Of a DNA stretch of 64,000 nucleotides, positions 15,001 to 33,000 are shown in pieces. The first letter of the stretch is position 1. Every line of letters starts with the position of its first letter. This DNA is from Candidatus Omnitrophota bacterium. GTDB lineage: Bacteria; Omnitrophota; Gorgyraeia; Gygaellales; Profunditerraquicolaceae. The notes below the pieces were generated by a model that had not been told where the DNA came from, did not search any database, and saw only the letters and a list, made by a program, of their open reading frames with translations. Position numbers and translations under genes: made by a program. The stretch covers positions 579,244 through 643,243 of the forward strand of contig JBAZKC010000001.1 of assembly GCA_041651035.1 (NCBI GenBank), given 5' to 3'.

Positions 15001-18000
15001 ATAAGGATATCATCCTAGAACAGCCGTTTTCTGGAGGACAGTACCTCAGCTGCGGGCAACTTTATATCAAAGTAGAATCACTTTTGAAAATGTTCGGCTT
15101 AAATCTAAAAGAATATAGAGATATTTCTCAAGATTCTTTAATGAAAAAAATAAAGGCAGTAGCAACTAATATGAGAACCTATGTTGAGATAAAGCCAATC
15201 AATGTAGGGGATAATAATACAATAAAAATGAGGCCAGCAATACAATTTGTCAGGACTATAGAAAACTTTATAAGTTTAAAAGGAATAAATACCGAGTACC
15301 TTTTAATCAATAGGGATGCTTCTAATGATAGAGAAGGCTATTGTCCAGTTAAGAGCATAGGAGATATTGAGTGGAATATCCCAATCGTCTATTCTATATT
15401 CAGACTCGATAATAATGGGAATTTACAAAAGAATTCTAAATTATTTTCCGAAACCGTTGCCTCATCTCCAACCATAGCCTTGAAAGCTAATGGGTTAAAT
15501 AAAATATCCCCTGAAGATTTAGCAAAGTCATTAGGGTTCAAGGTTGTTGACCGAGAAGCCGGATGGATAACATATCGTGAAGATTATCGATATAGTTTAA
15601 ATGATGTCGAACTCGTAATAGTCCCGCATGGTTTAACCGATGCAGATGTGGAGGGAGTACTTCAGGTTTCTAATAAAAATGATGATCCTAGATATGGATT
15701 AAATGAGACAGGCTATAGGCAAGTAGCTCAAGGAGCTAAAATACTTTGGAATAAATATTCAGCAAGAATTAGAGCAGGGCAACTTGTTTGTTATTATAGC
15801 GGCGTAAATAGAACCGTCCAGACTGCACAAGCATTTTTAGATTATGCTAAAAAGATATGCCCGGAGATTGTTATGGATATTAGGATCTCCGATGCGATTA
15901 GAATGAATTTTGGTGCTTGGGAAGGCACCAAAAAATCTCAGATTGATACAATTCTTTCTGAAGAGGAGAAGATTAGAGCTAAGAAATTTATCGGAAAGAA
16001 TGCGTTTATTAGTTCCCGGGACGGTCAGAGTTTTATTGAATATCTATATGTCGTGAAAGAATTCCTAAATAGTCTACAAGAAAAGCATAGAGGCAAGACG
16101 GTTATCATATTCGGTCATGGAATTTTTATCAAGGCAGTTAGAATTATTTTGCGCACAGGTGGTATCATCTCTGATCCATATTTGGATTGGGATAAAGGCG
16201 CACGAAAGTCTTACAAGTTGGGGATGCCGCTAGTTATGAATGATTCTCAGTTGGAAAATGAAGGTAAGATAGAGATTGCTAATATTTGGCGTAAGAATAT
16301 GGCTTACAGGCATTCATCGGAAGAATTAGCTGCTCATGCTGCAAAAATTCGTTTAGAAAGTTTGAAAATATGGCGTAGGCTTAAAGGTCCGCTTGCAGGA
16401 TCTATGTCGGTGGTTGAGCTTTATACTGTTCTCTTTTTAGATTATCTCAACCCTGAGAATTTCCTTTTCAACCATCCTAAGAGGCTAAGGATTATTCCAA
16501 AAGGTTCTGCAGCAAGCACTTTATATGCCGCAGCGGCGCTTACTGGTTTTCTTGATCCGGAGAGAATAAGCAATATTGATAAGGCTGATTTGGAAATTGT
16601 ACCCACTAGATTTACCCTTAGCGATGCTAGTCTTTATAAATTGGGTACTAGTCTAGAACAAGGAATCGGGCTCGCCTTATCTGGCAAAATTAAGAAAATC
16701 GATTTTCCTGTCTTAATTTTCTTATCGGATGGTTCTATGCAGTTAGGTATCGACCATCAAGCAAAATTTGCTGCTCACATGAAACTTAATAATCTCGCTG
16801 TGGTTATTGATATTAACTATTTACAGAATGCGTATAAAATTGAAGATGTCGACCCGACATTGATATATGATAGTTCCGGTTGTTTAGAAAGATTGAGCGC
16901 TTTATGGGAAGCTTATGGTTGGGAAGTCTTGGAAATTGATGGGCATGATTTTGAGCAAATTCATAGTGCTTATGAAAGAATTGGCCAAGGCGAGAAACCA
17001 TTAGTTATTCTAGCAAGGACTATAAAAGGACGGGGAATCCCACAAATAGAAGGCAGTTTGGGTTATAGCCACAAATTCCCTTCCGAAGATGATTATCAAG
17101 ATGCCCTAAACGCATTACAAGATGAGGTTAACAAATATCAGAAATTGGGATATAGCATAGAATATCCTGAATGGGTGTCGGCGCAAAAAATGGTATTTGA
17201 TAATCAAAAACTTACATTGCCCGAGCTTAAGCTTTTTGGAGACCATGGTTTGATACCCATCGCAGATCCAGTATTATTACAGAAAACCCATTTAGAGAAT
17301 ATCCTTAGAATTTGGTTAGAAGAATCTATCTTGTTGAATCCTAATAAAATATTTGTTTTGAATACAGACAATCCATCTCCCTTTGACCTTACGACGCCCA
17401 TAATGTCTCCGGATAATCATTCGTTTCTTATTTTTACCGGTATTAACGAGAGATTTGCCTTAAATCTAGCAGGTGGTATGTTCATTGAAGGATTGTTTCC
17501 TATCTATATCGGACCAGCAGCCCATATGCTTATTAATGCAGAGGACTGGAAAATGTTAGGCTTGGGTAAGCAAAATATCTTAGTTATTTCTAGATCAGCA
17601 GGATCGGATTTGAGTCATTGGGGACCAGGGCATTTAATTTATGAAGATATAGAGTTTTTTAAGAATCCGTGGTGTCAAGTCTTACAACCAGCCCATGCGT
17701 GGGATTTACTATTGATTCTTGAAAATTACTATAGGAAATACTCTAATGGGAAACCCACATATTTAAGGATGCAGGAGATTTATCCTTTTCAAATCCGGGC
17801 AGATTTGTTTGATACTGAGCAGAAACGTAGAAAAATATACGAGGATGGTTTTTATTTAGCTGACTCATTTGAAGAAAATGCTCCATCAGAGCCAGTTGTA
17901 TTTATTGTTAGCGGTAAAACTGTTTTAGAAGCCCTAAAGGCAGGTCAAACTTTGCGTTCTATGGGGATATCTTTTAGAATATTCAATATCATAAATCTGT

Positions 18001-21000
18001 CTTCAATTAACAAAGAAGAGTTACAAAAATTAACAGCTGACGCTAATAGAATTGTTACTGCGATAGATGCTTTACCTCAGAGTCTTTCTTCGTTGATTTA
18101 TGATACTTTACCAGATAAAAGGTCATGCGTTTTGGCATTTGGTATACGGGATGGCGGAGGGTATGAAGCCGAGGCGGATATTTTTTATAGAAATAAAATC
18201 AATGCCCAGAGTTTTGTTGCTTTATGTTTAAATTCCAGTAGCCCAGTCTCTATAAATATTTTTACCACCAAAGAACTTAAAGGGGAACTAGAGATATTAA
18301 AGGGGAGAAAGATTCATATTGATTATCAGAAAGATGTAGATGGGCCTCAGACTGCTGCTAGATTGGTTAAGGATGTTTTCCGACAAGTAGGAGTTATTCT
18401 TAAGGAGGCCAGCAAAGAATCTGAGGTTTGTGTTTGGATTGGCGAGAGTGACGAGTATATGCAATTTTATTTTATCATCTCCGATTGTTTAAATCCAGAA
18501 AAAAGCGTCAGATTTGAATGTGGGCCGCGCGAATTAACAGCATCAATCATGACAGCAGTTTGCCTGTTCTTCAAAGAAGAAGCAGCCACCCATTCTACAA
18601 ATATTATGCAGCTTATTCTTCAACTCGATAGTACCAATAGGGAGCAAAGACAGCAGGCCGGGGACCTTCTTGTAGGACAGTCACAAGAAGCTATTAGGGA
18701 AATCTTGCGTTCTGTAAATGAAATTAATAGGGTAATAATGACAGCCGCGATTTCCGGCGATTTACAAAAGGCGATAGATGGCATGTTATTGTTAGGGCGT
18801 AGGATTGAGATATTAGGCCGCATAGGCAGCGTTGAAGGCATAGAAGCCATCTTAGACGCGTTGGCAGACTCGGCCGTTGCTTTTACAAACACAGGCTTAA
18901 AAGAGGCTGAAGCGCTTAATAAAATTGCCCTTAACGCAATCGTAAATATAGGCAAGCCCGCGGTTCCATACTTAAAAAAGCATATAAATGATTCACGCCG
19001 GCCCGTACGGCAAACAATCTCGTTAGCGCTTTCGCGCATAGAATCTGCCTCTTCACCAATTAGAGGCCTAAGTTATACCGAAACCCTGCTTGACGGCATT
19101 CGGATAATTAAAATAATAATTAATCCAAGCCATTTCAGGCTCAGGGCGTCAATTCAGGGAAATCTTAGTAACAAGATGCACTGGGATGGCCTTGAAGGTA
19201 TTGTTTATGCGGGTAAAGAACCGCTTTTAGACATCAGCAGTCGTATTTGGAGTATTGATAATCATAAATCCAAGATGGCCCCCGGATTTATTGGAGTTGT
19301 TCCTTTCGGCAATATATTATGGCATCCATATTATGTTCTTTATCAAGATGGACGGGCTTATCACAGATACGGAGAAGAAACGAATATCGCGGCGCGCATG
19401 CGTTATCCCACTTTTGTGTTTTATAAAGACGGGACTTTTAAGTTTGAAGATACTGATTTTAACACCATAGATAGGGGTAATGTTCAAACAATTATAGGTA
19501 CTAACTTGGCAATAATACGCGATAGCAGAGAGGCAGCCTTGCGGGATATCCATTTTGAAGACATACGGCATGTTTTTCGTTTCCCTATAATAAAGGTGAA
19601 GTCAGACTCTAAGAGCGCTTACGGCGGCGATATTGCTATCGGCCGCAAAATTATTTATGGAGATGAAGAGGCAAGAATGAAGGCTTACGCCGGCAGGCCT
19701 CTTGAAATTGAACTCAGCCAGTATGGCATTGATTATTTACAGGCTAAAAAAGCTATAGAGTTTGCCAGTTACCGGATGGTGGAAGACAGGAATAAAGTTT
19801 TTGCGCGCGGCGACGCATATTTAGATGCCAGACAGGGCATAGTTAATATTATATTCCAATATTCGCCATACCCGCAGTTTATTATGACTCGGGATGATGA
19901 TTCTAATTTAGTATTTTACGCATTTGGCGGAAAATCAGGGCAGGAAGGCTTAACATTAGGCAGAATCCAAGATTATCTTATTACTGAAGGAGCCAAAGAT
20001 GCGCTGGTGCTTTGTAACGGAAGCGATGTGTTTGTTGAGCTAAATGGCGCTACTATAATGCCAAGCTGGAACGGGAGGGATCGTTTTACTTCGTTGCTGT
20101 TTGTTTATCCTGAAGGAGTAAATAATTCTTTACCTGTTAATAATAAGAAAGTTCCGGTAGGTAGGTTAAAAGTTAAAACCAGTTCTCCTCTCGGCGCCCT
20201 TATATGTACTGAAGGAATTCAGCGGATACTGGCAAGTTCGCCAATAATAATGATACAAGATAATAATTTCCAGCAAGTCTTAAATCAGATAATCGGCTCT
20301 TCATCCCATCCTTCAAACGCACCGCCTGTAATAAGTATCAGCAGTTCTCCCCTCATCCACCGCATCGCTGTTCTCACCGGAGGCGGCCCAGCCTCAGGGC
20401 ATAACGAGGTAATCTACTCCGTGGTCAAGCAAGCCTCAGAGTACGGCATTGACGTAATCGGCATACCTCAAGGATGGCTGGGCTTAGTTGACGAATCACT
20501 GTTAAAAGAGCATAAGGTGCTTACCTTAAGCGACGTAGAGCCTCACCGCTATGAAGGAGGGACTATCCTTGGCACCAGCCGCACTAATCCTTATCTCAGC
20601 AAAAAAGACCCCAAATACAATATAGAGAACTACAACAGCAAAGAAGCGGCCCTAAAGGCATTCCAGGATGATGAACTCAAAGCCAGCCAGCTCTTGCTTA
20701 ATAACCTGCACAAGTTACACATAGATGCCTTGGTTACATGTGGCGGAGACGACACCAACTCCGTATCCTATATGCTCTTTAATCATACCGGCTTCCCGAT
20801 CATCGGTATGCCTAAGACCATGGATAATGACATAGCTTTCCCTGAACCAGACGCAGACACCTACGGTTTTGACAGCTTCGTGAAAGCGGCAATTCCCATG
20901 GTGCAGGCAGGCATAATTGATGCCCAATCCACCAACCGTCTCTTACTGGTAGAAGTCTTTGGCCGTAACGCCGGTTTTGTGGCTATGGCCATAGGGGCAG

Positions 21001-24000
21001 CGGTAGGAGCTACCCGCACCTTGATTCCTGAAGAAGGTAAACTTGATATAGCCAACATTGCCCAGCAGATAGCCGCTTACCATAAAGAAAACAACTATTC
21101 TGTGGTTATCCTCTCTGAAGGTATCAAGGTCATCCGCGACTTTGCCGACAATAACCGTATCCTGGAAGCAGCTTTTAGCAATGATCCTTTAGCCAGGGCT
21201 GCCTATGAGATGGCGGCAAAGTCCGCACCTGACCAATTCGGCCATCCCAAGCTGCAGAATGCAGACATCATCATGGCCGCAGCCTTAAAGGCAGCCTTCA
21301 AAGAACACAAAGAAAGAATAGATATCAGCCGTTCAGGCAAGTTAGACTACCTTATCCGCTCCGCTCCCACCTCAGAGAAAGACCTCAACATGTGCCGCCT
21401 CCTGGGTGAATCCGCTGTAGAAATGCTCTTAGAAGGAGAAAAAGGAGCCATTGTCTACTACCACCAGGGCCAAGCTAAGACCTTAGCGCTTACTCCTAAA
21501 TTAGGCGGCAGGACAGTTGACATAGAATCAGCCCATAGAGAAGAATACCTTAAGGCTAATCAGGCGTTTAAGATAATAACCAGCTCCCCACTTGGCTCCC
21601 TTGTCCGTACTGAAACAAGACAGTCAAGTTCTCCCTTTTCAAAAACCCTGCTCACTTTCTCTTTAACAGCCCTACTGTTTATATTTTCCTTCTTCCCCAC
21701 CTCCGCCTTTGCCCACTACTTCAAGGACACCCCCCAGGGTAGGGTAGCGGTAGTGGAAGAATGGTCCTCAAAGGATCCCCAGGTAAACACCTTAGGCGGC
21801 ATCGGCAAGGATATACTGGAAGCAAGAGGCGAAGAAGCCACCCTGGAAGCTCTTTACGGCAAAGACGGCAACAGTGGCATAGTAAGAGAGCTTAAGGATG
21901 TTAATAATCTTCCCACTGACTTAGTTTCCCCTGGCCAAGAAATCAAAGTGCCAGCAAAAGATGTCCCTGTAGCAAAAGAACAGCCAGCCCCTTCCCCTAA
22001 AGAAGAGATTAACGAGTCAGAGCGACAAGTTAAATCTCAAGATAAACAAGACAAGAAAGAAGCAAAAGAAGTGGCAGGCAAGCATAGAAGTTATCTTCTC
22101 TGGGCCTTGTTTGGCGGCGCTGTTATTTGCTTAGGTTCAGCATTCCTTCTGATATTGGGTAAGTTCAAGTCTAAGAAAAAAGTAACGCCGCCAGCAGAGA
22201 AAGAAAGTGGAAAGCTTTATACTCCAACTCCTACTGCAGACTGGTCCTCCAAGCTCGGCCTTCAGGAATCCGACCGCATCCATATGACCGGCCTGCAGCG
22301 TAAGCAGCGTAAACTACAGTCTCTGACCCCAGATGAGCAGTCAAAACAGCAGTTGGAGATCGGTGCAAACTTTCTGCCCTCCGCGCTCTTAACAGACCAG
22401 CAGCGCAAAGAAAAGCTCGGTGCCGAAGAATTTACCGTCATTGAAGAAGATACAGAAAATGCCTCTTTTGCCAAAGACAACGTAGCAGTTAGCTGCCATC
22501 CCATGGATGGAGGCTTAGGCACTGGCGTTGTCCGGGAAGACTACCTTGAGATTGATTTAGGGCGCCCCAAAGATGATCCTAAGACTAATCGGGCAAAGCT
22601 AGGGGCCAAGGCCACAGACCTTTTTATTGACTTTATCGCAAAAGGAAAAGACGCACAAGGTAATCCTGAAGATGTCCCGGTAAAAGTCTCTATTGCCGAA
22701 ATCAAGTTCCTGCGTGTCATAAAGGATGCCCCGTTATTTAGCGAAGTAGTTTTCCAGCCGCTGGTAAATGACGACTCCGCGCCTTCCTACCATAAACTTT
22801 TAGACAGTGTTTACCTGGAAGATGTCATTGATAATACCGTCAGCGAAAAGAGGGCCTACAGGCAGGTCCTGGCAGAAAAGGGCATTAAGCTTGCTAAGGG
22901 CGACAATGATGAGGTGATGCTTTATCAGAAGGACTTACCTATTATAGATATCGAGACCGGGGAATTGACCGATAAGTTTACCGCACCCGGCGGCCATGGC
23001 CAGTGGGGGGTAAGGCTCTTATATGAGGCCTTAGGCTTCAGGCAGCCTGAAGGTGATAAGAAAAGCTATATCCGGGCCTTCTACAACGGCGACGGCATTG
23101 CCAACTTCCCGCCTGCCTCTGTCTTAGGCTGGATGGCCAGAAATAAGGTTCCCATCATTATGATCTCTACCACCAAGGCAGGGTTAGATAAGAAAGGCGG
23201 TCAGATTGGTATTCAGAGACTGCCTGACGGCAGCTTCCGTATACAGATGCTTGAGTTAGCCCAGGCCAAGAAGCCCGGCAAAGATCATGAAGAGCTTTTC
23301 TACTCTATCGGCCTGGAAGGAAATCCCAATATCCCGGGCAAAGATATCCTGGGTAAGGATCCCGAAAAAGACTATACCTACACCAACCAGCCAGGGGCTC
23401 AGTATTTTAACACCAATATCGCCTTGATTAACTACAGCGTGCTTGCTCCTATACTCCAGGAGCTAGCCAAAGAAGAAAACGTAGAGTTTGAAGGAGAAAC
23501 CTTAAGCGGCAGAGAGCTCATTGAGCGCATCATTTCACCTGATTTGATTGAAAACGTCAAGGACAAGAAAGACGGCCGCAAATACACCCAGTTAGAAGGG
23601 GCTATCGGCTCAAGCCTACTTAATCTGAATGCCTTCCTGACCAGCCGCGGTAAGCCGATCCTTAGGGTGGTAAATGTACCTACCGATCTAAGGAGTGAGG
23701 TCTTTACCCCGGTAAAGAATGCCTTTGATTTCATCTTCCAGAACCTTTCTGATTACTATGTGGTAGACCAGGAAAACTGGACTCTACGCGACAGAAGCAA
23801 GGGCCAGGTGCCCCCCTTGGTGGACCTTAAAGAAGATAAATTCTACGCCAATGTCCATAACTGCATCAATGCCTTCGGCAAACTCGCGCTTATTAGCTTA
23901 GAGCATTTGAGCATTGAAGGCAGGGTGCAGCTAAAAGATGCTACCTTAAAGGGTGAAGTTAAGATAATCAGCAAATACCCAGAGGTATTTGACTTGAATT

Positions 24001-27000
24001 CCCCTGAATCCAGAAAGCAGCTTAATCAGGAAGGCGAGCAGCCGTTAATCCTTGAAGATATTAAAATTAACATTAGTGAAGATGGGAAAATGGACATAAG
24101 TGGTGCAAGTTCTCCTCTACGGGTTCCCTTGCAGCAAGTCCGCTCCAGCAGCCCGATAGATTTATTTACCATTAAAGATTTTGTATCCCAGCATCCGATT
24201 TTAACTGTTATTGCTGTTTATGTATCGTGGAAATTATTGAAATTGGTCGGTAAATGGCAGAGAACTATGGCAGCAATAATGCATTATCGGCTTAAACCGC
24301 AAGAACTTAAGTATTTAAAAAATAAGTACCCTACCTTTTTGCAAAATGAAGGGTATTACAGGAAGGTTCTTGATAGATTAGTGTGTGATAGAATAAACTC
24401 TGGAGATTGGGGTAAAGTTTTAAAGGGTGTAGAGGTTATTAATAGACGTTGGGAATATGTATATAATCCTCAAGAGTCCATCTCTTTCAAATATGTTATC
24501 AGCCGACCCGAACCCTATATGTCGAAACAGTTAGTTGTTAAGAAAATGACTTTCTATCCCCATTTTATAGAGCGTCTAAGTCTTCTTTATGAGGTATGGC
24601 CGGAAATGGCAGAGGAAATAATAGATGCAATGCTTACTCATGAAGAAGGCCACCTGCGTAACTATTACAAATTTATGGAAGGCAGTATATCGGGAAAATA
24701 TCTGGACGAAAATGATGAAAAACTCGCCTTTGATCATCTTAAAAATGAAAAAGGAGAGAGGGCCATGGCCCTGACAACATGTTGGTTCCAGGCCTATATG
24801 AATCCTTCTTATGAGCTAGAGATGCACTCTCGGGAGTATTTCTCTGAGTTTAGGCCGATTTTCTTTACTTTAACCCCTCAGGTCTTGGATTTAATTTTAG
24901 GCATAGAAAGAGAATATCAAAAGAGATTGGCTTTATCTAGACTATCGAAAGAAGGGGGTGTCTCTAGTAGCCCCATTGTAACAAACGGCGATCTTTACGG
25001 CTACTTGTCGGCTCCACTCAAGACTATCAGCCCAGCCATTAATTACGATGTTAGTCCTGAAGAATACCAGGAACAGCTGAATAGGAATTTTGCGGATAAA
25101 GACGCCGAGACAGAAAAAGTCCTTAAGCTTTCGCAGGCCAAGCTAAACCGGCTGATGCAGAAAAACAGAATGGTTTTCTTGCCTACCTTGGAAAGAAACC
25201 GCGAGCATTCTGCGTTCATAAGCATTGATCTCGGAGACGCTATCGCATTAAATAGATACGCATTGGATATTCAGGGCATAGTTCTGCAAAGTATCGGGGA
25301 TATAGACAAGATAAGGTTTAGTGATGTATCTAAGCTGCACGTCAGCTTAGTCAATAATACGATTGGCAATCAGACTGTAGATATCAGCAATAAGGCGCTA
25401 AGCACTCTTTATTTAGAACACATGGAGGCTTTTGCATCCCTTACTGCCTTTGATGTGAATATTTGCGGCCCACATCTTATGCCGCCCCTATCCATTGTGC
25501 TTGAGGTGAGAACTAATGCTCCTCAGCTTAAAGCTTTTAGAAAGCAAGCCCAGGAGATTTTGGACAGAACCGCCCCTCAAGAAGGCGTCATTGGATTCGT
25601 CCCTGATATCACCCATATATCCTTAGGTTATATTGTTGAGACACAGCGCAGAGAACTACAAGAGCTTTATCGACTCTTAGAACAGATAAAGAAAGACGCC
25701 GTGCCGTTTCCGGTGACCGCATCTCAGGTCCAGATAATCGCGTCAATTAATAAAATGATGGTAAATGATGGGGCAATAACAGTTACCTTGCCATGCTCCT
25801 CCAGCCCGCTGGAGAAGAAAGGCTCTTTTGTATCCAGCCTGAAGCGGACACTACGATCCCTGCTCAAGCAGGTCAGCAAGCTGCCCATAGATAAGATACT
25901 CAATTTAACTCCTTTAATCGGCTTAACCCTGTTGTTCAGCGCCTGTATTGTTATAGATAATGCCCCGCGGGATCCGGAAGTCGAAGCGCTTAAAGCCAAA
26001 GCGCTCAGGTACGGACTCCTCTTTGCGTTCGTTGTGGCGTTCTTACCTCTGTACCTAGCGCCTATTGATAGAGCTGTACGCTATATTGCGCGCTCTATTA
26101 AATCCCTGATGACCATAGAAAAGAAAGGTCCACCCGCTGCAACCCCTGGGCAAAAGACCCCCGCGGCAAGAGATAAGGATAAAGCTTCCTCCAACCCGGT
26201 ATCCGTTATTAATAATGAAAATATTCCTTGTGTTATTTGTGGATCAAAAAATATCACTGTCCTCTTAGAGAGATATTTAAATGATCATTACTGCCGGTTA
26301 GTTAAATGCAATGAATGCGGTTTAGTTTGTGCCAACCCAATGCCTTCATTACAGCAATTAAGAAAAATCTATTCAGAGGGTTACTTCTTAAGTGCGAATC
26401 CGCACATTATAGGTTACAGAGATTATTTAGAAGAGAAAGATATAAGGATTAAAAATTACAGTTATCTTTTAAACATGTTAAATGAATTTAAAGCTCAAAA
26501 AGGCAGATTATTAGATATTGGCGCAGCTTTTGGCTATTTCCTGGTTGCCGCAAGAAACGCAGGCTGGCAGGTTATTGGCACGGAGATTTCTTCCTATGCC
26601 AGGGGTATGGCAAGAACTCTCTTTGATCTAGATATATTGCCTTTAGAAACTATAAAAACAGCGGGATTCCCCAGCAACACATTTGATGTAATTACGTTAT
26701 TTGATGTGTTGGAGCATTTCTCTAATCCATTGGAAGAACTATTAGAAATAAACAGAGTTTTTAAAAAAGACGGTGTTCTTCTATTGAGGGTTCCTGTATT
26801 AGATGATCGTGGGCTAGAAGGCCCTATAGTGAAAGCCGGTCACTTATTTTATTTTACCATTCCCACGCTTGAACTCTTGCTTCGAAAAGCAAATTTTAAA
26901 GATTTAAGAATTTACGGTGATCCTTTTAATAGCGATATATCCCATGTAGTTATTGCTGGAAAAGTTTCGAAGAAAGCTTCTGCGCCGGCGACTCATAAAG

Positions 27001-30000
27001 AAAAATCCAGTTCTCCCTTGGGGGCGCTGCTGTGTACCCAATTGAAGCAGAAAGGTCGCTCCAGTCCTTCGACTCGCTATGCCAATAGGATGAATAGCTC
27101 GCTCAGGACTAATGGCGAGCGAAGCCGAACCACCAGCTCGCCGGTTATAATACTTCCCTCAAAGAGACAGCTTAAGAGTTTAACCTGGGGGTTCTACGTA
27201 TTTGAAATCCCTGAATCCCAGGTAGGCGGCATTGCCGATGTTGCCATGGGCCTGCCCGAGGAAATAGTAAGGGCAGAGACCGGCGACGGAAGGCCGCACA
27301 GGGTATTCAGGGTTTCTCCTTATTATCAAGGCATGGAGGCCATGACCAATGGCGTTCCTCTTTCAAGCCTAAAGGAAGTCTGTCAGTATCGTATTCCTTA
27401 TCAAGAAGGTATCGAGATTGTAGAGGTGTTTAAGCGAACGCTTGACAGCGGGATTACCGATTATTTCCTGGTAAACCCGATATTTAACCGCGCTTATGAT
27501 AAGTCCGACCAGAATAATCCTGACGGCGCCATCAAAGAAATAGCCCTCTTTAATATGGCCTCTGCCATGCTGCTTATTTCAGGAGAGACAGCTGCGGATG
27601 TAATGTTTTTAGCTGACTGGCAGACAGGATTAGTTATCCCCTACCTTAGAGAAGAAGCCTTGTCTGAGTCGCGGGCAGCATTGAGAAGAATAGAGATCAT
27701 GAAGGGCTTCCGAAAATTTAAGGCAGCTAGTTTGGTAGATGCTTTTATAAACAGAAGGTCGCTAGAGAAAATAGTGCCTATCTGCTGGATTAATAACGAG
27801 GCCTATCGCGGACAGTTCGCGATTACCGGAAAAGAAGATTTTGAAAAGAAGACCGGACTATTCGGCCAGGAGAATTTTGAATGGGCGCGTTGGACTACTC
27901 CGGGTCGGGAAGACGAAGTCTTTATGGTTATCCTAAAGCTGGCTGTGGAAAGCATTGCTGCCACAGGAGGAAGGATAGTTACGGTAAGCGATACTTATGC
28001 CAAGGAAATTATGGGACAAGACCTTTATGCCGGAGAGTATCCGGGGATGTTGCACGGAGTTTTAAGACGCACCAAGGTAACCGGGATCTTAAATGGCGTA
28101 AGTCTTAACTGGAGATATGTCCATGACATCAGGGAAAAAAGAGAGAAGAAATTAGCCCTGCAGGGAAGCCTGGGATTAGAGAGGGAAGGTTCAAGCAGGC
28201 TGGTCTTTATGGTAAGCCGGCTGGTGAGCCAAAAGGGTATATCCTTGTTTGTGGACGGCGCAAAACAGATAGCCTTTTTACTTAAGAGATATCCTAAAAT
28301 GCAACTGGTTTTAGGGGGGCCGCCTGAAAAGTACTGGTTGAGCCGCTTGGAAGGACTCAAATCATTTTTACAATCAAAATTTCCGAAAAGGGTAAAAATA
28401 ATTTTGGACTTCCTCCCCGCGGAAGGTTTAACCAAAGATCTTTTAATCGGCGGAGACATCAATCTGTTTCCTTCTCTATATGAGCCTTGCGGTACCGTAG
28501 GCAAAGCAGCCATTAATATGGATGTAACTATAGCTCGGTTGACCGGAGGTATTCGCGAGAGCGCAACGGAAGTAGATATTCTTAAAAATACAGGAAATGC
28601 CTTTACCTTCGAGGATTATACGCCCGAAGCACTTATTGAGGCCTGGCAAAGAGGTATGGATTTAAGCCTGGATGAAGAAGTATGGCAGGGTATACAGGAA
28701 GCTACCCCCCAGACAGTAATAACATGGGAAACGCAATTCCAGAAGTATGCCAGATTAATATATGAGGCGCGTAGGGCTAAAGGGCTGGAAGCCAGCTCGC
28801 CGCTGGCGGCCCCTGACAAGGCCGGATTATCCTGGATCCAGCGGCACGCGCCGCTTTTAAAAGATAAGATCATAGTAACCATTTCTATGGAGGGCAATAT
28901 TCCTGAATTCGTCGGTAATATTGCCCAGGATGCCAATACCAAGGGCGGGTTAGGGGCGTATTTTGGAGATAAGCTTGAGGGTCTGGCTAAAATAGGCATG
29001 CAGGCCTTTGGCATACAGCCGGCATATTCCATTATGGAAAACGAAGGTAGAGGTGTAAAGCTGGCAGTGGATTATGAACAGCTTATTCGGCAAGGCATTG
29101 TCCAGAGGCTTCTTGATAAGAATGGCAATCCGATGGTGCTTTCTGTAACGAGCTGGTATGACAATAATAATGATAATGACAAGAACGGGCTTCATCAGGA
29201 TCGCTGCGTAGAGATGCAAGTCCTTAAAGTCAATCGCGGAGGAACTCCGCTGTTTTTATTAGTCTGTCCCGAAGTTTTTGACGTGCTTTATACCACCAAC
29301 AGGGTGCACCGTTTCACCCAGGAGATGGTTTTCGGAAAAGCTGTTTATCAGTTATTGACCAGGCTTAATATTGTCCCGGATATTCTGCATTTAAACGAAG
29401 CGCATACAGTAGTAGCCGCGGCTAAAATAAGAAGCGACGATAATTTTAAGAAGACCAGGGTCGTCTATACCAACCACACTGTTGTTCCTCCGGGAATGGA
29501 AATTTTCCGTGAAATAACCGAGCAAAAGATCGTCAACCGCATGATGTATTTAATCGATGAAAGTCACAAGCTTAATGAAAAATTCATCAAAAAGGGCATT
29601 GTTGATTTCTGTTATGCTGCCACTCAACTGGCAGATATCATTAACGCAGTCAGCGATGAGCATGCTCTCAACACTAGGAAGCTCTTTGAGAATGTATACA
29701 AAGAGCAGTACGGGGAGGAATTTGACAAGCAAGTTATCGCTATCTTAAACGGCTCAGGGGATTTCTGGCTGAGCGATGCTTTGGTGGTGATTCATAACAC
29801 AGGAAGGCTGGCTACTAGAGAGGAAATTTGCAGCATCCATGAATCCTCAGAGAAAGAGGCCCTGGAAGAAATCAGGGTACGCACAGTTAGTTCCTATGAT
29901 CCTGAAGGGATAAAGCTTGACCCCAACAAGCCGACCATTTGGGCAGTAAGAAGAATCGTAGACTATAAGAGTCAGTATCCTATGTTGCGGTTCCTGGTGC

Positions 30001-33000
30001 ATCTTATCTGCGCTGACCGCGACAGGCACTTCACCAGGGATGAGCTTAAGAGGCTGTGGTTTAGGGATATAGGAGGCTTGGCTAATGCCTACCGATACAA
30101 CCAATTAGGGTTGAGGGAAACAGTAGAGACTGTCCTTGACCGTCTTTTTATAGGCAGAGATGAAATTAATGGTTTGGGTGGGCAAATAGTGGTGGGTGGG
30201 CCTACCTTCGGCAGTTATTTGCAGGAGTGGGTAAGCGAATTTAAGAAATGGACTTATAATGTTGAGGATCTGCGCGGAAGATTCGTGTATGTCCCTTGGT
30301 CTGATGCCAAGTTGCTTAAGATGCAGGCAATCGGCGCAAATATCTGCGTTGATTTTCCCCCCTATGGCGATGAGGCTTGCGGAACTTCCCATCAAAGGAC
30401 AGCGCTTAACGGAGGTATCGTTATTGCTATAAATGGCGCCGGCCCTGCGGAAATGATGTCGATGTCGGAAAAGATAAGGCGTTTTCTTTTTGGTCCCTAT
30501 GTCATTCAGACCAAAGACGGACTGGTGAGTGATAATAAGGCCTTCTATAATTGCGCACCGCCAGACTTGTTTGGGAAGCTAGAGATGGTTACCGCGGATT
30601 TCTACGATAATAAAGAGGCGTATAAAGACGATATGTATAGTTTTTATCTGGCCTCCCAGAAAGTTACGGCCCAGGCCATGGAAGAGCGGTATACAGAGCA
30701 GGCTTATCTACCCTTAGTTGATAAGGCCGCCAGCTCTCCGGTGGGGGCGCTTGTAGGATTGCGGTTAGATATCAGAAGAGACCACGCCAGCGCATCATTA
30801 CAAAGATATAACCATCAGCAAATTCTAACTCAAATAATCGGTTTTCCAGCTCATGCTATCCATGCTCCGCCTCTAGCTAGCAGCAGCCCGCTTGCATCCC
30901 AGGCCACAACTGCCCCCGCAAGCTCCCTGCTGCAGAGAATAGCAACATCTGCCTCAAAGCCCTTAGCCGTCTTTATTCTAACCGTCCTATTAACTATCTT
31001 TTCTTTCCTCCCCACCCCCGCCTTTGCCCACTACTTCAAGGATACCCCTCAGGGCAGGGTAGCGGTAGTAGAGGAATGGTCCTCTAAGGATCCCCAGGCA
31101 AACACCTTAAGCGGCATCGGAAAAGACATGCTGGAAGCAAGAGGCGAAGAAGCCACTCTGGAAGCCCTTTACGGCAAAGACGGCAACAGTGGTATAGTAA
31201 GAGAGCTTAAAGGTGCTAATAATCTTTCCACTGACCAAATTTATCCCGGCCAGGAACTTAAGTTACCAGCAGAAAATACCCCTATAGTAGAAGAACAAAC
31301 AACTCCTTCTAAAGATCAAATTAACAAACCACAGGTCAAGCCTCAGGAAAAACCAACCAAGGAAGAACAAACCAAGGAAGCCCCAGCCAAGCGGAAAATC
31401 CATATCTTCTGGGCCGTAATCTCTGTCTTATTTACTGGTATCCTTATATACCTAGGCAAAATATTGCTCATTAAGATACTACGCAAAGTTAAACCCGCCC
31501 CAGCCCCTGCTGTTCAAACCCCCGATATCAAATTCGGCACCTCAGGTTGGCGCTGGGATGAATACAACGAATATACAAAAGACGGCGTATTCATGGATGA
31601 CTGGTTCTTAAACGACTTCTATGCCGCCATACAGGCCTGCGCAGAGGAAATATTAAAGCAGGAACAGCTTAACCCCAAAAGAAAAGGCGTTATCATCAGT
31701 GGCGATACCCGCTCAGTAGGCCCCTACACCAACCTTGACCTGGTGGAGATGGCTACAGATTACTTAGGCAAGGCAGGAATATACGTAATCAAGCTGGAGC
31801 AGTATTGTCCTATTCCGGCAGTCTCCTGCCTGATCAGCCGCCTTAATGCCGCCGGTTCCATATACTTCACCGCTTCGCATAACCCGGGTAAGGGTTATTC
31901 TATTACCAAAGAAGACGGCTCTACCATGCAAATCAATAACGATGGCATAAAATTCAACCCTGCTGATTCCGGGCCCGCGGGAGAAGAAATCACCGGCCCC
32001 ATAAACCAGCGCAGCAATGAATTAAGGAAGGCAAGCTTCGGCACCAGATGGTGGGAGGATATTATCAACCGGCAGGAAAGTGTTACGCCGCTGAGTTATT
32101 TATTTACTACGGCATCTATAGAATATATTGAATCTCTTAAAGAAGTCATTGATTTTGACATAATTAACAAGGCATTTAAGCAAGGGGATATAGATTATAT
32201 TGTCATTGATACCAAGCACGGCGCAGCAGTGGATTATTACCGTGCTATTATTGAATATTTAGGATTAGAAGAAAGTAAGGATTTTGAGATCATCAACGCC
32301 GAACACGACTCAAGCTTTACCCAGCTGGTTGACCCTGAAAACAACATCTCTCGTCCTGACCGTCCAGAACCGGATGCCAAATACTCTAAGCATTTAATAA
32401 CAAGAGTAAAAGAGCTCAGCAGCCAGGGTAAGAAAGTCATCGGTGTTGCCTGCGATGCTGATGCTGACAGGAATGGTATTGTAGACAGCACAGGCACCTT
32501 CCTTGACCCGAACATGACCTTAGCCATTATCTCAGAGTATGCCTTGCAGCAGGCCTTCATCAACTGGCTGGAACTTAAGTATCCGGAAAAACAGCTAGCC
32601 TGCGATGATTTTATAGAGACAGAAGACAGGCGGGAACAGTTCAAAGCCTTGACCCAGGAATTTATCGCAGAGCAGAATGTCGGACTAGCCAAGACTATAC
32701 CCACATCCAACATGATCAATGCCATTGCCGCTATCTGGGGCTGCCGCCTTGAAGAGACCAAGGTAGGCTTTAAATGGTTCAGGCCCTACTTATTGCCTGG
32801 CTCTGAAAATCCAGTCCTGGTTGCCGGAGAAGAGTCCCAGGGTCTAAATATCCGCAGCCAGAGAGAAAACCCCAGGTATATAGTCCTGGAAAAAGACGCC
32901 CTGGTAGCCGGCTTAAAGATGCTGGAAATAGCCTCCAGGACCGGCCTTACTCCGCTACAATTATCCGATAAATTACAGGAAGGAATAGGCTACTTCGCCT

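What the first reader, a model, noticed from the sequence alone, without database searches (positions are those of the whole stretch)
15600..30735. Several enzyme-like domains carry substitutions at canonical catalytic residues while others are fully intact
- The transketolase-like domain lacks both conserved His of the GHPG and SxGHGS motifs (KGPLAG and PKGSAAS).
- The histidine phosphatase reads PHG instead of RHG.
- The GT35 phosphorylase aligns R at the PLP Schiff-base Lys position (GTSHQRTALNGG against GTSNMKxxxNG).
- The GlgA-like domain has QVGGIADV instead of KTGGLGDV.
- By contrast PGM, GlgB, PPi-PFK and M23 keep all the signature residues (TASHNP, DADADR, GEESQG; D/E/D of GlgB; GGDD/PKTMDND; HxxxD/HxH).
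A mix of live enzymes and pseudoenzymes in one chain would fit a scaffold or substrate-channelling role, or a glucan-binding structural role.
Basis: inference. Interest (0 to 1): 0.55.

Follow-up and report, generated by a model that had tools for sequence, protein, structure and literature searches.

The report
Remodelled enzyme domains in giant protein
This stretch is part of a single bacterial (Omnitrophota-type) protein of more than 21,000 residues that links sugar and glycogen enzymes in one chain; four of them do lack textbook catalytic residues, but these are conserved features of uncharacterised variant enzyme families rather than random decay.

Summary
All the quoted motifs are in the sequence. 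Profile alignments, E. coli references and two confident AlphaFold models place the substitutions at the canonical positions:
- Transketolase-like domain: His26→Pro and His66→Ser.
- Histidine-phosphatase domain: RHG→PHG, and also Glu89→Arg.
- GT35-fold domain: the PLP lysine is Arg.
- GlgA-like domain: Lys15→Gln, and also His161→Asn.
PPi-PFK, PGM, GlgB and M23 are intact.

The whole 64-kb window is one ORF, a fragment of an Omnitrophota giant "multi-enzyme" protein. That class is already described.

The "pseudoenzyme mosaic" reading is only partly supported. Each substitution is shared by homologues at 32–62% identity, including free-standing genes:
- TK-like proteins of about 650 aa.
- GT35-like proteins of 600–780 aa in Planctomycetota.
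The remaining active-site residues are invariant in these families. For the GT35-like family, 11 of 11 mapped positions are invariant against 30 of 660 columns overall.

The domains therefore belong to conserved, remodelled paralogue families that predate fusion into the giant gene. Most notable is a PVC-wide phosphorylase-fold family with an invariant Arg in place of the Schiff-base Lys. Whether these domains catalyse new chemistry or only bind ligands is unresolved. The PHG phosphatase is the best candidate for a true pseudoenzyme.

The parts
3..63998 (+). Single uninterrupted ORF (21,332 codons) running off both ends of the window; a fragment of a giant multi-enzyme protein.
   Evidence: No stop codon in frame +3. 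Closest relatives are 'partial' Omnitrophota proteins that fill whole contigs and whole-locus open frames in Omnitrophota MAGs.
15570..16292 (+). Histidine-phosphatase-superfamily domain of the PHG type (aa 5190-5430). Arg10→Pro (codon 15624-15626) and Glu89→Arg in GpmA numbering; His11, Arg62 and His184 equivalents kept.
   Evidence: Pfam His_Phos_1 50.5 bits; PDB 1ebb/1h2e; alignment with E. coli GpmA and paralogues. PHG is conserved in P0039 and P0047.
16293..18302 (+). Transketolase-fold domain (aa 5431-6100), all three TK sub-domains. His26→Pro, His66→Ser, His100→Val, His461→Ser and Asp469→Trp; Arg358, Ser385 and Arg520 lost. Asp155, Asn185, Glu411 and His473 kept, and probably His261.
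   Evidence: PDB 6yak E=9e-24. AF2 pLDDT 80.5 / pTM 0.85. Foldseek to human TK gives TM 0.77/0.83. Residue table; family invariants.
18303..20342 (+). 680-aa stretch with no recognisable family, lying between the TK-like and PFK domains.
   Evidence: No Pfam or NCBIfam hit. Part of it (aa 6384-6709) has a 28%-identical relative in another giant ORF, L007.
20361..21428 (+). PPi-type phosphofructokinase domain with an intact active site (TSR, GGDD, PKTMDND, GR, EG).
   Evidence: Pfam PFK 180 bits. PDB 9dqm PPi-PFK E=1e-28 with alignment.
21579..22169 (+). Membrane-hairpin module 1: TM helix, a loop of about 135 aa with a LysM-like half motif, then a second TM helix.
   Evidence: Hydropathy peaks at aa 7215 and 7368. 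About 60% identical to aa 10293-10497. LysM 15.5 bits.
22980..23936 (+). UDP-glucose-pyrophosphorylase-like domain, divergent; PxGHG, NGD and KKGG motifs present.
   Evidence: Pfam UDPGP 38.9-44.6 bits. PDB 2oef alignment.
26481..26906 (+). SAM-dependent methyltransferase domain.
   Evidence: Pfam Methyltransf_23 77.8 bits.
27153..28802 (+). GT5 GlgA-like domain (aa 9051-9600). Lys15→Gln (QVGGIADV at 27219-27242), His161→Asn and Tyr355→Phe. Asp137, Asn246, Arg300, Lys305 and Glu377 kept. A subfamily-specific Lys sits at Glu377+7.
   Evidence: Pfam Glyco_transf_5 105.8 bits. PDB 6gne/2qzs. Alignment and residue table against E. coli GlgA and P0001-P0007.
28803..30782 (+). GT35 (glucan phosphorylase) fold domain of the Arg type (aa 9601-10260). 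Arg 10132 (DNA 30396-30398) replaces the PLP Schiff-base Lys. GGLG, LNExH, TNHT, RRxxxYK and EAxGTS motifs are kept.
   Evidence: Family profile against PDB 9l6i E=1e-36. AF2 pLDDT 87.3 / pTM 0.89. Foldseek top hits are all glycogen/maltodextrin phosphorylases, E=1e-27, TMq 0.69. E. coli MalP alignment.
30879..31493 (+). Membrane-hairpin module 2, a repeat of module 1, with a LysM-like motif in the loop.
   Evidence: LysM 21.4 bits against a cut-off of 20.9.
31527..33263 (+). Phosphoglucomutase, four domains, with all four signature loops intact.
   Evidence: Pfam PGM_PMM I-IV. PDB 9v68 E=1e-26 with alignment.
44892..46841 (+). GH13 branching enzyme (GlgB) with an intact catalytic triad; lies outside the finding's range but was cited by it.
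   Evidence: Pfam CBM_48, Alpha-amylase and Alpha-amylase_C. Alignment with E. coli GlgB.
39..302 (+). M23 metallopeptidase domain with HxxxD and HxH intact; lies outside the finding's range but was cited by it.
   Evidence: Pfam Peptidase_M23 95 bits. Sequence HPGID...HLH.

Best explanation
The region is a run of enzyme modules inside one giant, membrane-anchored Omnitrophota polypeptide of the already described 'multi-enzyme metabolic' / Archaeovorin type. The modules cover alpha-glucan and sugar-phosphate metabolism: UDPGP-like, PPi-PFK, GlgA-like, phosphorylase-fold, PGM, GlgB and GlpX-like.

The four domains that lack canonical catalytic residues are not decayed copies. They are members of conserved, lineage-restricted paralogue families (Omnitrophota/PVC). 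Their altered residues define those families and arose before the domains were fused into giant genes.

Shown:
- The substitutions are real.
- Homologues at 32-62% identity share them, and some of those homologues are free-standing genes.
- The other active-site residues are invariant.

Inferred:
- The TK-like family still anchors a thiamine-diphosphate-type cofactor but has a rebuilt substrate channel, so it does not catalyse classical sugar-phosphate transketolation.
- The phosphorylase-fold family cannot hold PLP through a Schiff base. It keeps the sugar- and phosphate-binding residues, so it either works without PLP (the invariant Arg may contact a phosphate or diphosphate of the donor) or binds glucan or sugar phosphate without turnover.
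- The GlgA-like family has an altered donor site.
- The PHG phosphatase-like domain is probably non-catalytic and may serve as a phospho-ligand-binding module next to the TK-like domain.
- Paired TM helices with LysM-like loops keep all these modules on one side of the membrane, presumably the cytoplasmic side.
For: Identity of the object.
- The window is one ORF.
- The nearest relatives are Omnitrophota giant-gene fragments.
- The literature describes such proteins with GT5, GT1, PGM and FBPase modules.

TK-like domain.
- Pro, Ser/Thr and Trp at the His26, His66 and Asp469 positions appear in all nine family members down to 34% identity.
- Asp155, Gly156, Asn185, Glu411 and His473 are invariant. 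In total 8 of 9 mapped sites are invariant; hypergeometric P=2e-6.
- The full TK fold is predicted.
- Free-standing 633-661 aa members exist. P0041 sits in an operon after a radical-SAM gene. P0046 sits in a cluster with NTP-transferase, HAD, PhyH, a luciferase-like gene and kinases.

GT35-like domain.
- Arg occupies the Lys position in 74 of 90 homologues. Lys appears only in the most distant, canonical ones.
- 11 of 11 mapped active-site positions are invariant, against 30 of 660 columns overall; P=2e-16.
- The family occurs in Omnitrophota giant ORFs and as stand-alone 600-780 aa genes in Pirellulales, Phycisphaerae and Sedimentisphaerales, all with GTSDQR where the motif was found (14 of 15 loci).
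- The fold is confirmed.

GlgA-like domain.
- Position 15 is Q, M or K across seven relatives, while the flanking EIPESxVGGIxDV is fixed.
- Asn at position 161 and Arg300, Lys305 and Glu377 are conserved.

HisPhos domain.
- VPHGLTD and the basic residue at position 89 are shared by the only two orthologues found.

Topology.
- TM hairpins and LysM-like loops are seen.
Against: - No biochemical data exist, and sequence conservation alone cannot separate a remodelled enzyme from a conserved pseudoenzyme.
- The TK-like family also changes the aromatic aminopyrimidine pocket (Phe434→Pro, Phe437→His), so cofactor binding is not assured.
- The GlgA-like domain lacks both Lys15 and His161. From memory, mutagenesis of both in E. 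coli GlgA causes large activity losses.
- The HisPhos evidence rests on two homologues only. Two further searches found nothing.
- Residue mapping for GT35 and TK rests on sequence and profile alignments and on fold-level matches. It does not rest on inspected pocket geometry, because the tools return no coordinates.
- Topology comes from a simple hydropathy scan.
Confidence: 0.6

Rival explanations
1. The four domains are true pseudoenzymes, catalytically dead and retained under selection as glucan-, sugar-phosphate- or cofactor-binding scaffolds. They would organise or regulate the live enzymes (PGM, GlgB, PFK) in the same chain.
For: - Canonical catalytic residues are missing in all four domains.
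- The HisPhos domain lacks both the RHG Arg and the acid Glu.
- The GlgA-like domain lacks both Lys15 and His161.
- The TK-like domain lacks nearly all substrate-contact residues.
- Every domain scores far below NCBIfam equivalog cut-offs.
- Conserved pseudoenzymes are normally under purifying selection, so family conservation is compatible with this view.
Against: - Residues with no obvious structural role are invariant: the cofactor-activating Glu411 and the metal ligands in TK, and the TNHT His, the RRxxxYK phosphate binders and the EAxGTS Glu in GT35.
- The replacements themselves are fixed (Pro, Trp, Arg), which suggests a new functional pocket.
- Stand-alone members lie in operons that look biosynthetic. 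A pure scaffold for a giant chain makes little sense there.
Confidence: 0.3
2. Local decay. Selection on individual modules of a very long gene is relaxed, and these domains are degenerating in this lineage. The ORF stays open only because a stop would truncate everything downstream.
For: The giant-gene literature notes that domains are often highly divergent from their families. Large stretches of the region have no detectable family.
Against: - The same substitutions occur in homologues at 32-62% identity from other Omnitrophota and Planctomycetota, including free-standing genes.
- The substituted domains are 50-62% identical to their nearest relatives, with invariant motif blocks.
Confidence: 0.04
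3. Alignment artefact or relocated residue. The catalytic residues are present but offset, or their role is taken by a residue elsewhere in the fold. Candidates are the subfamily-specific Lys at Glu377+7 in the GlgA-like domain and the Arg/Lys at the Glu89 position in the HisPhos domain.
For: - The GlgA-like subfamily has a conserved Lys in EPCGTxxK..xNM that canonical GlgA lacks.
- The HisPhos PHG type gains Arg/Lys where the acid Glu normally sits.
- TK His261 is recovered by a one-column shift.
Against:
- P0005 has both Lys15 and the extra Lys, so the extra Lys is not strictly compensatory.
- Relocation cannot be tested without coordinates.
Confidence: 0.06

Closest known systems
Omnitrophota giant proteins: 'Archaeovorins' (West-Roberts et al. 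2023, bioRxiv 10.1101/2023.11.21.568195) and the 'multi-enzyme metabolic cluster' class (bioRxiv 10.64898/2026.06.07.730766)
   Same: - A single ORF of tens of kilobases with many TM helices.
- HEAT and TPR repeats, methyltransferases and peptidase domains.
- GT5 starch-synthase, GT1, PGM and FBPase modules.
- Nearest homologues are Omnitrophota giant-gene fragments.
   Different: - Only a 64-kb internal fragment is seen, so the N-terminal peptidase and signal region and the SecA-like domain cannot be checked.
- Those papers list Pfam content and do not discuss catalytic-residue status. Text searches for active site, catalytic residues, pseudoenzyme and inactive returned nothing.
GT35 alpha-glucan phosphorylases (GlgP/MalP; TIGR02094 'alpha-glucan family phosphorylase'; closest structure Segatella copri GP, PDB 9l6i)
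   Same: - GT-B phosphorylase fold (Foldseek E=1e-27).
- Profile E=1e-36.
- GGLG, LN(D/E)xH, TNHT, (K/R)RxxxYK and EAxGTS motifs retained.
   Different: - The Schiff-base Lys is an invariant Arg.
- The domain is about 640 aa, against about 800 aa for canonical phosphorylases.
- It scores 72.5 bits against the TIGR02094 cut-off of 191.7.
- Stand-alone members also hit Pfam Glyco_transf_5. Pipelines name them either 'glycogen/starch synthase' or 'glucan phosphorylase'.
Transketolase (E. coli TktA; human-type and split TK, PDB 6yak/4kxx) and vertebrate TKTL proteins
   Same: - Three-domain TK fold (TM 0.77/0.83 to human TK).
- GDG-type Asp, Asn185, Glu411 and His473 conserved.
- My recollection is that vertebrate TKTL1 is likewise a TK homologue that departs from the canonical active site and whose catalytic status is debated; this was not checked here.
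   Different: - His26, His66, His100, His461, Asp469, Arg358, Ser385, Arg520, Phe434 and Phe437 are all replaced, most by residues that are invariant within the family.
- It scores 167 bits against a transketolase equivalog cut-off of 488.
Bacterial glycogen synthase GlgA (GT5)
   Same: - Pfam Glyco_transf_5 plus Glycos_transf_1.
- Asp137, Asn246, Arg300, Lys305 and Glu377 conserved.
- xxGG(I/L)xDV loop present.
   Different: - Lys15 is Gln (Q, M or K across the subfamily), His161 is Asn and Tyr355 is Phe.
- There is an insertion of about 35 aa after residue ~150 and an extra Lys at Glu377+7.
- It scores 168 bits against the TIGR02095 cut-off of 328.
Histidine phosphatase superfamily, branch 1 (GpmA, PhoE, SixA, cobC)
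   Same: Pfam His_Phos_1 above its cut-off (50.5 against 21.7 bits). The nucleophile His11, Arg62 and His184 equivalents are present.
   Different: Arg10→Pro and Glu89→Arg/Lys, conserved in the three PHG-type sequences. Sister domains in the same proteins keep the Glu and mostly the Arg.

Membership tests
Omnitrophota Archaeovorin-type / multi-enzyme giant protein | ORF of tens of kb encoding many distinct enzyme Pfams (GTs, methyltransferases, peptidases) with numerous TM helices | tested here: met
   A 21,332-codon open frame. M23, UDPGP, His_Phos, TK, PFK, MTase, GT5, GT35-like, PGM, GlgB, GlpX, HEAT, TPR and HD domains. 42 hydropathy peaks.
Omnitrophota Archaeovorin-type / multi-enzyme giant protein | Omnitrophota origin | tested here: inconclusive
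   The source contig was not found. The closest relatives at 47-60% identity are mostly Omnitrophota MAG fragments and giant ORFs; one of the giant-ORF loci (L010) is labelled Planctomycetales.
Omnitrophota Archaeovorin-type / multi-enzyme giant protein | N-terminal signal with C39/S8 peptidase region, and a SecA-DEAD-like domain | not testable with these tools
   The ORF runs off both ends of the window. Neither domain lies within the 64 kb.
GT35 glucan phosphorylase | GT-B phosphorylase fold and sequence homology | tested here: met
   Profile against 9l6i E=1e-36. Foldseek top 50 hits are all phosphorylases.
GT35 glucan phosphorylase | Lys that forms the Schiff base with PLP (EASGT(G/S)xxK) | tested here: not met
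   Arg at aa 10132. It is invariant in alignment A1 and is Arg in 74 of 90 homologues.
GT35 glucan phosphorylase | Sugar- and phosphate-binding residues (TNHT His; K/R-R-x-x-x-Y-K; EAxG Glu) | tested here: met
   Invariant H225, R383, R384, Y388, K389 and E524 in domain numbering.
GT35 glucan phosphorylase | Curated family score (TIGR02094 / TIGR02093) | tested here: not met
   72.5 bits against 191.7, and 18.1 against 552.9.
GT35 glucan phosphorylase | Bound PLP and phosphorolytic activity | not testable with these tools
   Requires the purified protein.
Transketolase | Three-domain TK fold (PP, Pyr, C-terminal) | tested here: met
   AF2 pTM 0.85. TM 0.76-0.83 to human TK.
Transketolase | ThDP-Mg anchor (Asp155, Asn185) and activating Glu411 | tested here: met
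   D146, N175 and E386 are invariant in alignment A2.
Transketolase | Active-site histidines His26, His66 and His100, and the sugar-phosphate binders Arg358, Ser385, His461, Asp469 and Arg520 | tested here: not met
   The window residues at these positions are P, S, V, E, D, S, W and E respectively. The same pattern holds across P0039-P0046.
Transketolase | Curated equivalog score | tested here: not met
   167.4 bits against 488 for NF004559.
GlgA glycogen synthase (GT5) | K-x-G-G-L loop Lys15 | tested here: not met
   Gln in the window. Q, M or K across the Omnitrophota subfamily.
GlgA glycogen synthase (GT5) | His161 (HNL motif) | tested here: not met
   Asn in the window and in P0001-P0007.
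GlgA glycogen synthase (GT5) | Arg300, Lys305 and Glu377 | tested here: met
   SRLVSQKG and YEPCG are conserved.
GlgA glycogen synthase (GT5) | Curated subfamily score (TIGR02095) | tested here: not met
   167.8 bits against 328.45.
Histidine phosphatase superfamily branch 1 | Pfam His_Phos_1 above the gathering score | tested here: met
   50.5 bits against 21.7.
Histidine phosphatase superfamily branch 1 | Catalytic core Arg10-His11 ... Arg62 ... Glu89 ... His184 (GpmA numbering) | tested here: not met
   P-H ... R ... R ... H. The Arg10 and Glu89 equivalents are replaced.
PPi-dependent phosphofructokinase | GGDD (Asp104) and PKTxDND (Lys124, Asp127) with the TSR and GR motifs | tested here: met
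   Alignment with PDB 9dqm and 4i4i. Curated NCBIfam cut-offs are not reached, however (198 against 253).
alpha-D-phosphohexomutase (PGM) | The four signature loops: phospho-Ser TASHNP, metal DxDxDR, sugar GEExxG and phosphate SGTEP | tested here: met

The most novel reading that the evidence does not exclude
The Arg-type phosphorylase-fold family is found in Omnitrophota giant proteins and as stand-alone genes across Planctomycetota. It could be a catalytically active GT35 lineage that works without Schiff-base PLP. For example, it could be a nucleotide-sugar- or sugar-phosphate-dependent alpha-glucan transferase in which the invariant Arg contacts the donor phosphate. It would then be a living counterpart of the 'proto-GT35 NDP-sugar-dependent enzyme' postulated in the alpha-glucan literature (PMC11046441). 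Together with a His-less ThDP enzyme of new specificity, it would make the giant chain a membrane-tethered glycogen and sugar-phosphate metabolon that runs partly on non-canonical chemistry.
Probability: 0.2. Interest if true: 0.8.

Novelty: new variant of a known kind. Interest (0 to 1): 0.55.

Why it matters
- GT35 is treated as a uniformly PLP-dependent family. A broad, conserved clade with the phosphorylase fold, an intact sugar/phosphate site and an invariant Arg instead of the cofactor Lys gives a concrete, expressible test case. The stand-alone proteins of about 620 aa exist in Sedimentisphaerales and Pirellulales. They could show how PLP dependence arose or can be lost.
- These proteins are currently annotated inconsistently, as 'glycogen synthase' or as 'phosphorylase'.
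- The His-less transketolase-fold family likewise points to an uncharacterised ThDP-type activity.
- For the giant-protein field, metabolic reconstructions that count Pfam hits in these genes as canonical enzymes (transketolase, glycogen synthase, phosphorylase, phosphatase) are unsafe.
- The TM-hairpin and LysM-like architecture supports a cytoplasmic-face, wall-anchored arrangement of the enzyme modules rather than an extracellular one.

Tried and rejected
- Misplaced residues: rejected. phmmer, family-profile and MAFFT alignments with E. coli TktA, GlgA, MalP and GpmA all agree.
- Lineage-specific decay: rejected, because distant homologues and free-standing genes share the substitutions.
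- Finding the source contig: a 42-mer was absent from the JGI metagenome contigs. The best GTDB-representative relative is only 51% identical.
- More HisPhos PHG-type homologues: a word-indexed protein search returned nothing. A metagenome locus scan returned no confirmed relative. Only P0039 and P0047 support conservation, plus the sister domains in P0039, P0047 and P0066.
- Conserved domain order around the GT35-like domain in other giant ORFs: not found. L006-L008 and L010 have different neighbours, so the modules are shuffled.
- Informative genomic context for stand-alone Arg-type GT35 genes: the neighbours are cell-wall, cell-division and unrelated genes, with no glycogen genes.
- Literature on PLP-independent GT35 or catalytic-residue analysis of giant proteins: nothing specific was found.
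- Pocket-level inspection of the AlphaFold models: not possible, because the tools return only confidence, secondary structure and fold matches.

Full report
WHAT IS THERE

Frame +3 of the window has no stop codon over 21,332 codons, and the ORF runs off both ends. The finding's 15.1 kb therefore lies inside one giant gene.

Pfam scans of the whole translation give the following order:
- M23 peptidase
- UDPGP-like (weak)
- His_Phos_1
- transketolase-like
- PFK
- UDPGP
- a SAM methyltransferase
- Glyco_transf_5 plus GT1
- a very weak Phosphorylase hit
- PGM I-IV
- CBM48 / alpha-amylase (GlgB)
- GlpX-like
- a further methyltransferase, HEAT and TPR repeats, and HD

The nearest relatives of the GlgA-like part are 'partial' Omnitrophota proteins that fill whole short contigs. 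Whole-locus open frames in Omnitrophota MAGs carry the same phosphorylase-like domain.

Two preprints already describe this class. One calls them 'Archaeovorins', with GT5 glycogen-synthase-like domains as the second most common domain and with PGM and FBPase domains. The other describes a 'multi-enzyme metabolic cluster' class with a sugar-metabolism Pfam module. Neither discusses catalytic residues.

CHECK OF THE OBSERVATION

Independent alignments confirm the positions.

Transketolase-like domain (aa 5431-6100).
- Against split TK 6yak and human TK, 'KGPLAGS' aligns with 'SGHPGGS' and 'PKGSAAS' with 'SKGHASP'.
- With E. coli TktA as ruler, His26→Pro and His66→Ser.
- In addition, His100→Val, His461→Ser and Asp469→Trp, the Arg358, Ser385 and Arg520 positions are no longer basic or Ser, Phe434→Pro and Phe437→His.
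- Asp155, Gly156, Asn185, Glu411 and His473 are kept. A conserved His lies one column from His261.

Histidine phosphatase domain (aa 5190-5430).
- Against E. coli GpmA, 'VRHGES' aligns with 'VPHGLT', so Arg10→Pro.
- 'LNERHYG' aligns with 'AIRMNFG', so Glu89→Arg.
- The Arg62 and His184 equivalents are present.

GT35-like domain (aa 9601-10260).
- 'EACGTSHQRTALNGG' aligns with 'EASGTSGEKAEMNG' of 9l6i, 'EASGTSNMKFALNG' of 4bqe and 'EASGTGNMKLALNG' of E. coli MalP.
- The cofactor Lys is therefore Arg.

GlgA-like domain (aa 9051-9600).
- Against E. coli GlgA, Lys15→Gln.
- Asp137, Asn246, Arg300, Lys305 and Glu377 are kept.

- PFK keeps TSR, GGDD, PKTMDND, GR and EG, with the PPi-type Asp and Lys.
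- PGM keeps all four signature loops.
- GlgB shares 311 identical residues with the 728-aa E. coli GlgB, including the Asp/Glu/Asp triad.
- M23 keeps HxxxD and HxH.

FOLD-LEVEL SUPPORT

AlphaFold2 models were built with family alignments.
- The GT35-like domain gave pLDDT 87.3 and pTM 0.89.
- The TK-like domain gave pLDDT 80.5 and pTM 0.85.

Foldseek against the PDB returns only glycogen and maltodextrin phosphorylases at the top for the GT35-like model (Segatella copri GP, E=1e-27, TMq 0.69). For the TK-like model it returns transketolases (human TK, TM 0.77/0.83, rmsd 4.3 Å). A profile of the GT35-like family hits 9l6i at E=1e-36 and classical GP/MalP at 1e-15 to 1e-10.

The homology assignments are therefore sound, even though the single-sequence Pfam hits were marginal. 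Pocket geometry could not be inspected, because no coordinates are returned.

ARE THE SUBSTITUTED DOMAINS DECAYED?

The decisive evidence comes from relatives.

TK-like domain.
- Eight relatives at 34-62% identity all have G-P-L-x-G and P-K-(G/T)-(S/T) in place of the two His motifs, and Trp for Asp469.
- The ThDP-Mg ligands and Glu411 are invariant in them. In total 8 of 9 mapped sites are invariant, with 103 of 670 columns invariant overall (P=2e-6).
- Several relatives are free-standing proteins of 633-661 aa.
- P0041 follows a radical-SAM gene on a 15.9-kb contig that also carries PfkB kinases and an M23/LRR protein.
- P0046 lies in a cluster with an NTP-transferase, HAD hydrolase, PhyH dioxygenase, luciferase-like oxidoreductase, kinases, PqqD and ABC-2 transporter genes.

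GT35-like domain.
- An exhaustive HMMER search of 1.84 billion representatives found 311 relatives.
- At the Lys position, 74 of 90 motif-bearing relatives have Arg. The seven with Lys are among the most distant hits and are canonical 'GTSGMK'-type sequences.
- In a 22-sequence alignment at 32-52% identity, only 30 of 660 columns are invariant. They include all 11 positions that map to phosphorylase active-site motifs: LNExH Asn and Glu, TNHT His, RRxxxYK Arg, Arg, Tyr and Lys, EAxGTS Glu, Thr and Ser, and the replacement Arg (P=2e-16).
- In GTDB representative genomes the Arg-type family occurs inside giant open frames (L006-L008 in Omnitrophota MAGs; L010 is labelled Planctomycetales). It also occurs as stand-alone 600-780 aa genes in Pirellulales, Phycisphaerae and Sedimentisphaerales, and in L009.
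- These stand-alone proteins score above threshold on Pfam Glyco_transf_5. NCBI names them 'glycogen/starch synthase' and IMG names them 'glucan phosphorylase'.

GlgA-like domain.
- Seven Omnitrophota relatives at 49-60% identity keep EIPESxVGGIxDV but vary at position 15 (Q, M or K).
- All have Asn161 and a subfamily-specific Lys seven residues after Glu377.

HisPhos domain.
- The only two orthologues found share VPHGLTD and a basic residue at position 89 (P0039 at 55% and P0047 at 46% identity).
- Sister HisPhos domains in the same proteins and in P0066 keep the Glu and mostly the Arg.

Conclusion. The substitutions are ancestral, family-level features that predate incorporation into this giant gene.

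WHAT THIS MEANS MECHANISTICALLY (INFERENCE)

TK-like domain.
- The textbook roles, from established structural enzymology, are as follows. Asp155 and Asn185 hold the metal-diphosphate. Glu411 activates the cofactor. The histidines, Asp469 and the Arg358/Ser385/His461/Arg520 cluster bind the sugar phosphate.
- The family keeps the first set and replaces the second set with fixed new residues.
- This is the signature of a ThDP-type enzyme with a different substrate, although the altered aromatic pocket leaves cofactor binding unproven.

GT35-like domain.
- The Lys serves to tether PLP, whose 5'-phosphate is the acid/base (PMC11046441). Arg cannot form the imine.
- The sugar- and phosphate-binding residues are invariant, so the site is still used for something.
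- One possibility is catalysis without covalent PLP. Reference 314 of PMC11046441 proposes that PLP replaced a nucleoside monophosphate in an NDP-sugar-dependent proto-GT35. The other possibility is ligand binding only.

GlgA-like domain.
- It has lost two residues whose mutation strongly impairs E. coli GlgA (Lys15 and His161). This statement rests on my memory of the Preiss and Geiger laboratories' work and was not checked here.
- The extra Lys might substitute for Lys15. That is speculative, and P0005 has both.

PHG phosphatase domain.
- It lacks a phosphate-pocket Arg and the general acid, and is the most convincing pseudoenzyme.
- It directly precedes the TK-like domain both here and in P0039. 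This suggests a paired module, perhaps a phospho-ligand-binding domain.

ARCHITECTURE

A hydropathy scan finds 42 candidate TM segments. In the region of interest they come in pairs:
- aa 7215 and 7368
- aa 8632 and 8667
- aa 10321 and 10472

The first and third pairs belong to a repeated module of about 200 aa that is about 60% identical between copies. Its inter-helix loop carries a LysM-like half motif (15.5 and 21.4 bits).

Because the helices are paired, the following blocks all lie on the same side of the membrane:
- HisPhos, TK, unknown stretch, PFK
- UDPGP
- MTase, GlgA, GT35
- PGM

Their substrates (PPi, UTP, sugar phosphates) argue for the cytoplasmic side, with the LysM-like loops facing the wall. 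This agrees with the 2026 preprint's inner-membrane-anchored reading rather than an extracellular location.

COMPARISON WITH KNOWN FAMILIES

The object works like, and very probably is, an Archaeovorin-type multi-enzyme giant protein. The N-terminal and SecA-like features cannot be checked in a fragment.

The four domains are homologues of TK, GT35, GT5 and His_Phos_1, but each fails at least one defining catalytic feature. Each also scores far below the curated NCBIfam cut-offs:
- TK-like: 167 against 488
- GT35-like: 72.5 against 191.7
- GlgA-like: 168 against 328
- HisPhos: 46 against 326

They should not be filed as transketolase, phosphorylase, glycogen synthase or phosphoglycerate-mutase-type phosphatase.

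VERDICT

The pseudoenzyme/scaffold interpretation is partly supported. It is plausible for the phosphatase-like domain, open for the GlgA-like domain, and less likely than neofunctionalisation for the TK-like and GT35-like domains.

The giant-protein context is known. The conserved, non-canonical active-site families, above all the Arg-type phosphorylase-fold clade spread across the PVC group, appear undescribed in the searched literature and are directly testable with small stand-alone proteins.

Noticed in passing
window 3-63998: The entire 64-kb window is one ORF with no stop in frame +3. The six ORFs of 150 aa or more that the ORF listing reports all lie inside it and are probably not genes.
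   Followed up: partly
window 21579-22169 and 30879-31493: A repeated module of about 200 aa, about 60% identical between copies: TM helix, a loop of about 135 aa with a half-LysM match, then a TM helix. It closes the PFK block and the GlgA/GT35 block. A tighter hairpin lies at 25896-26057. The arrangement suggests wall-anchored membrane hairpins that separate cytoplasmic enzyme cassettes.
   Followed up: partly
window 18303-20342, 22203-22980, 23973-25892: Long stretches between the recognised domains have no Pfam or NCBIfam match. Part of the first stretch (aa 6384-6709) has a 28%-identical relative in another giant ORF, L007 3572-4615.
   Followed up: no
window 47172-47594 (aa ~15724-15864): The GlpX-type FBPase match is weak and partial (34 bits to PDB 3d1r; profile positions 43-180 of 307). 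The DPIEGT metal motif reads DVLEQS. This may be another remodelled domain outside the finding's range.
   Followed up: partly
window 22980-23936 and 14544-14723: There are two UDP-glucose-pyrophosphorylase-like regions. The downstream one keeps PxGHG, NGD and KKGG motifs but is very divergent (24 bits to PDB 2oef). The upstream one is only a fragment-level hit.
   Followed up: partly
P0039 (aa 122-574), P0047 (aa 377-871), P0066 (aa 915-1106): Relatives carry tandem histidine-phosphatase domains. The upstream copy keeps the acid Glu (RHA or SHG motif) and is followed by the PHG-type copy. P0066 has a canonical RHG domain right after an Arg-type GT35 domain. The PHG-HisPhos and TK-like adjacency is conserved between the window and P0039.
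   Followed up: partly
L004 1-12759; L086 1-11141: Free-standing TK-like genes sit in two different contexts. In L004 the context is radical SAM, a 1311-aa unknown protein, PfkB kinases and M23/LRR. In L086 it is a cluster of NTP-transferase, HAD, PhyH, luciferase-like, thymidylate-kinase-like, AAA_33, PqqD and ABC-2 genes that looks like a sugar-nucleotide or natural-product pathway.
   Followed up: no
L012-L020, L009 (stand-alone Arg-type GT35 genes): Annotation pipelines disagree on these proteins. NCBI names them 'glycogen/starch synthase'; IMG names them 'glucan/starch/glycogen phosphorylase'. Pfam scores them above threshold on Glyco_transf_5 but not on Phosphorylase.
   Followed up: yes
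L006-L008, L010: Other giant ORFs that carry the Arg-type GT35 domain have different neighbouring domains, so module order is not conserved between giant genes.
   Followed up: partly
window 1-64000: GC skew is positive in 30 of the 32 2-kb bins and the cumulative skew rises almost steadily. GC content varies from 0.36 to 0.48 between modules and is highest over the PFK and GT35/PGM blocks. This could reflect different origins or ages of the fused modules.
   Followed up: no
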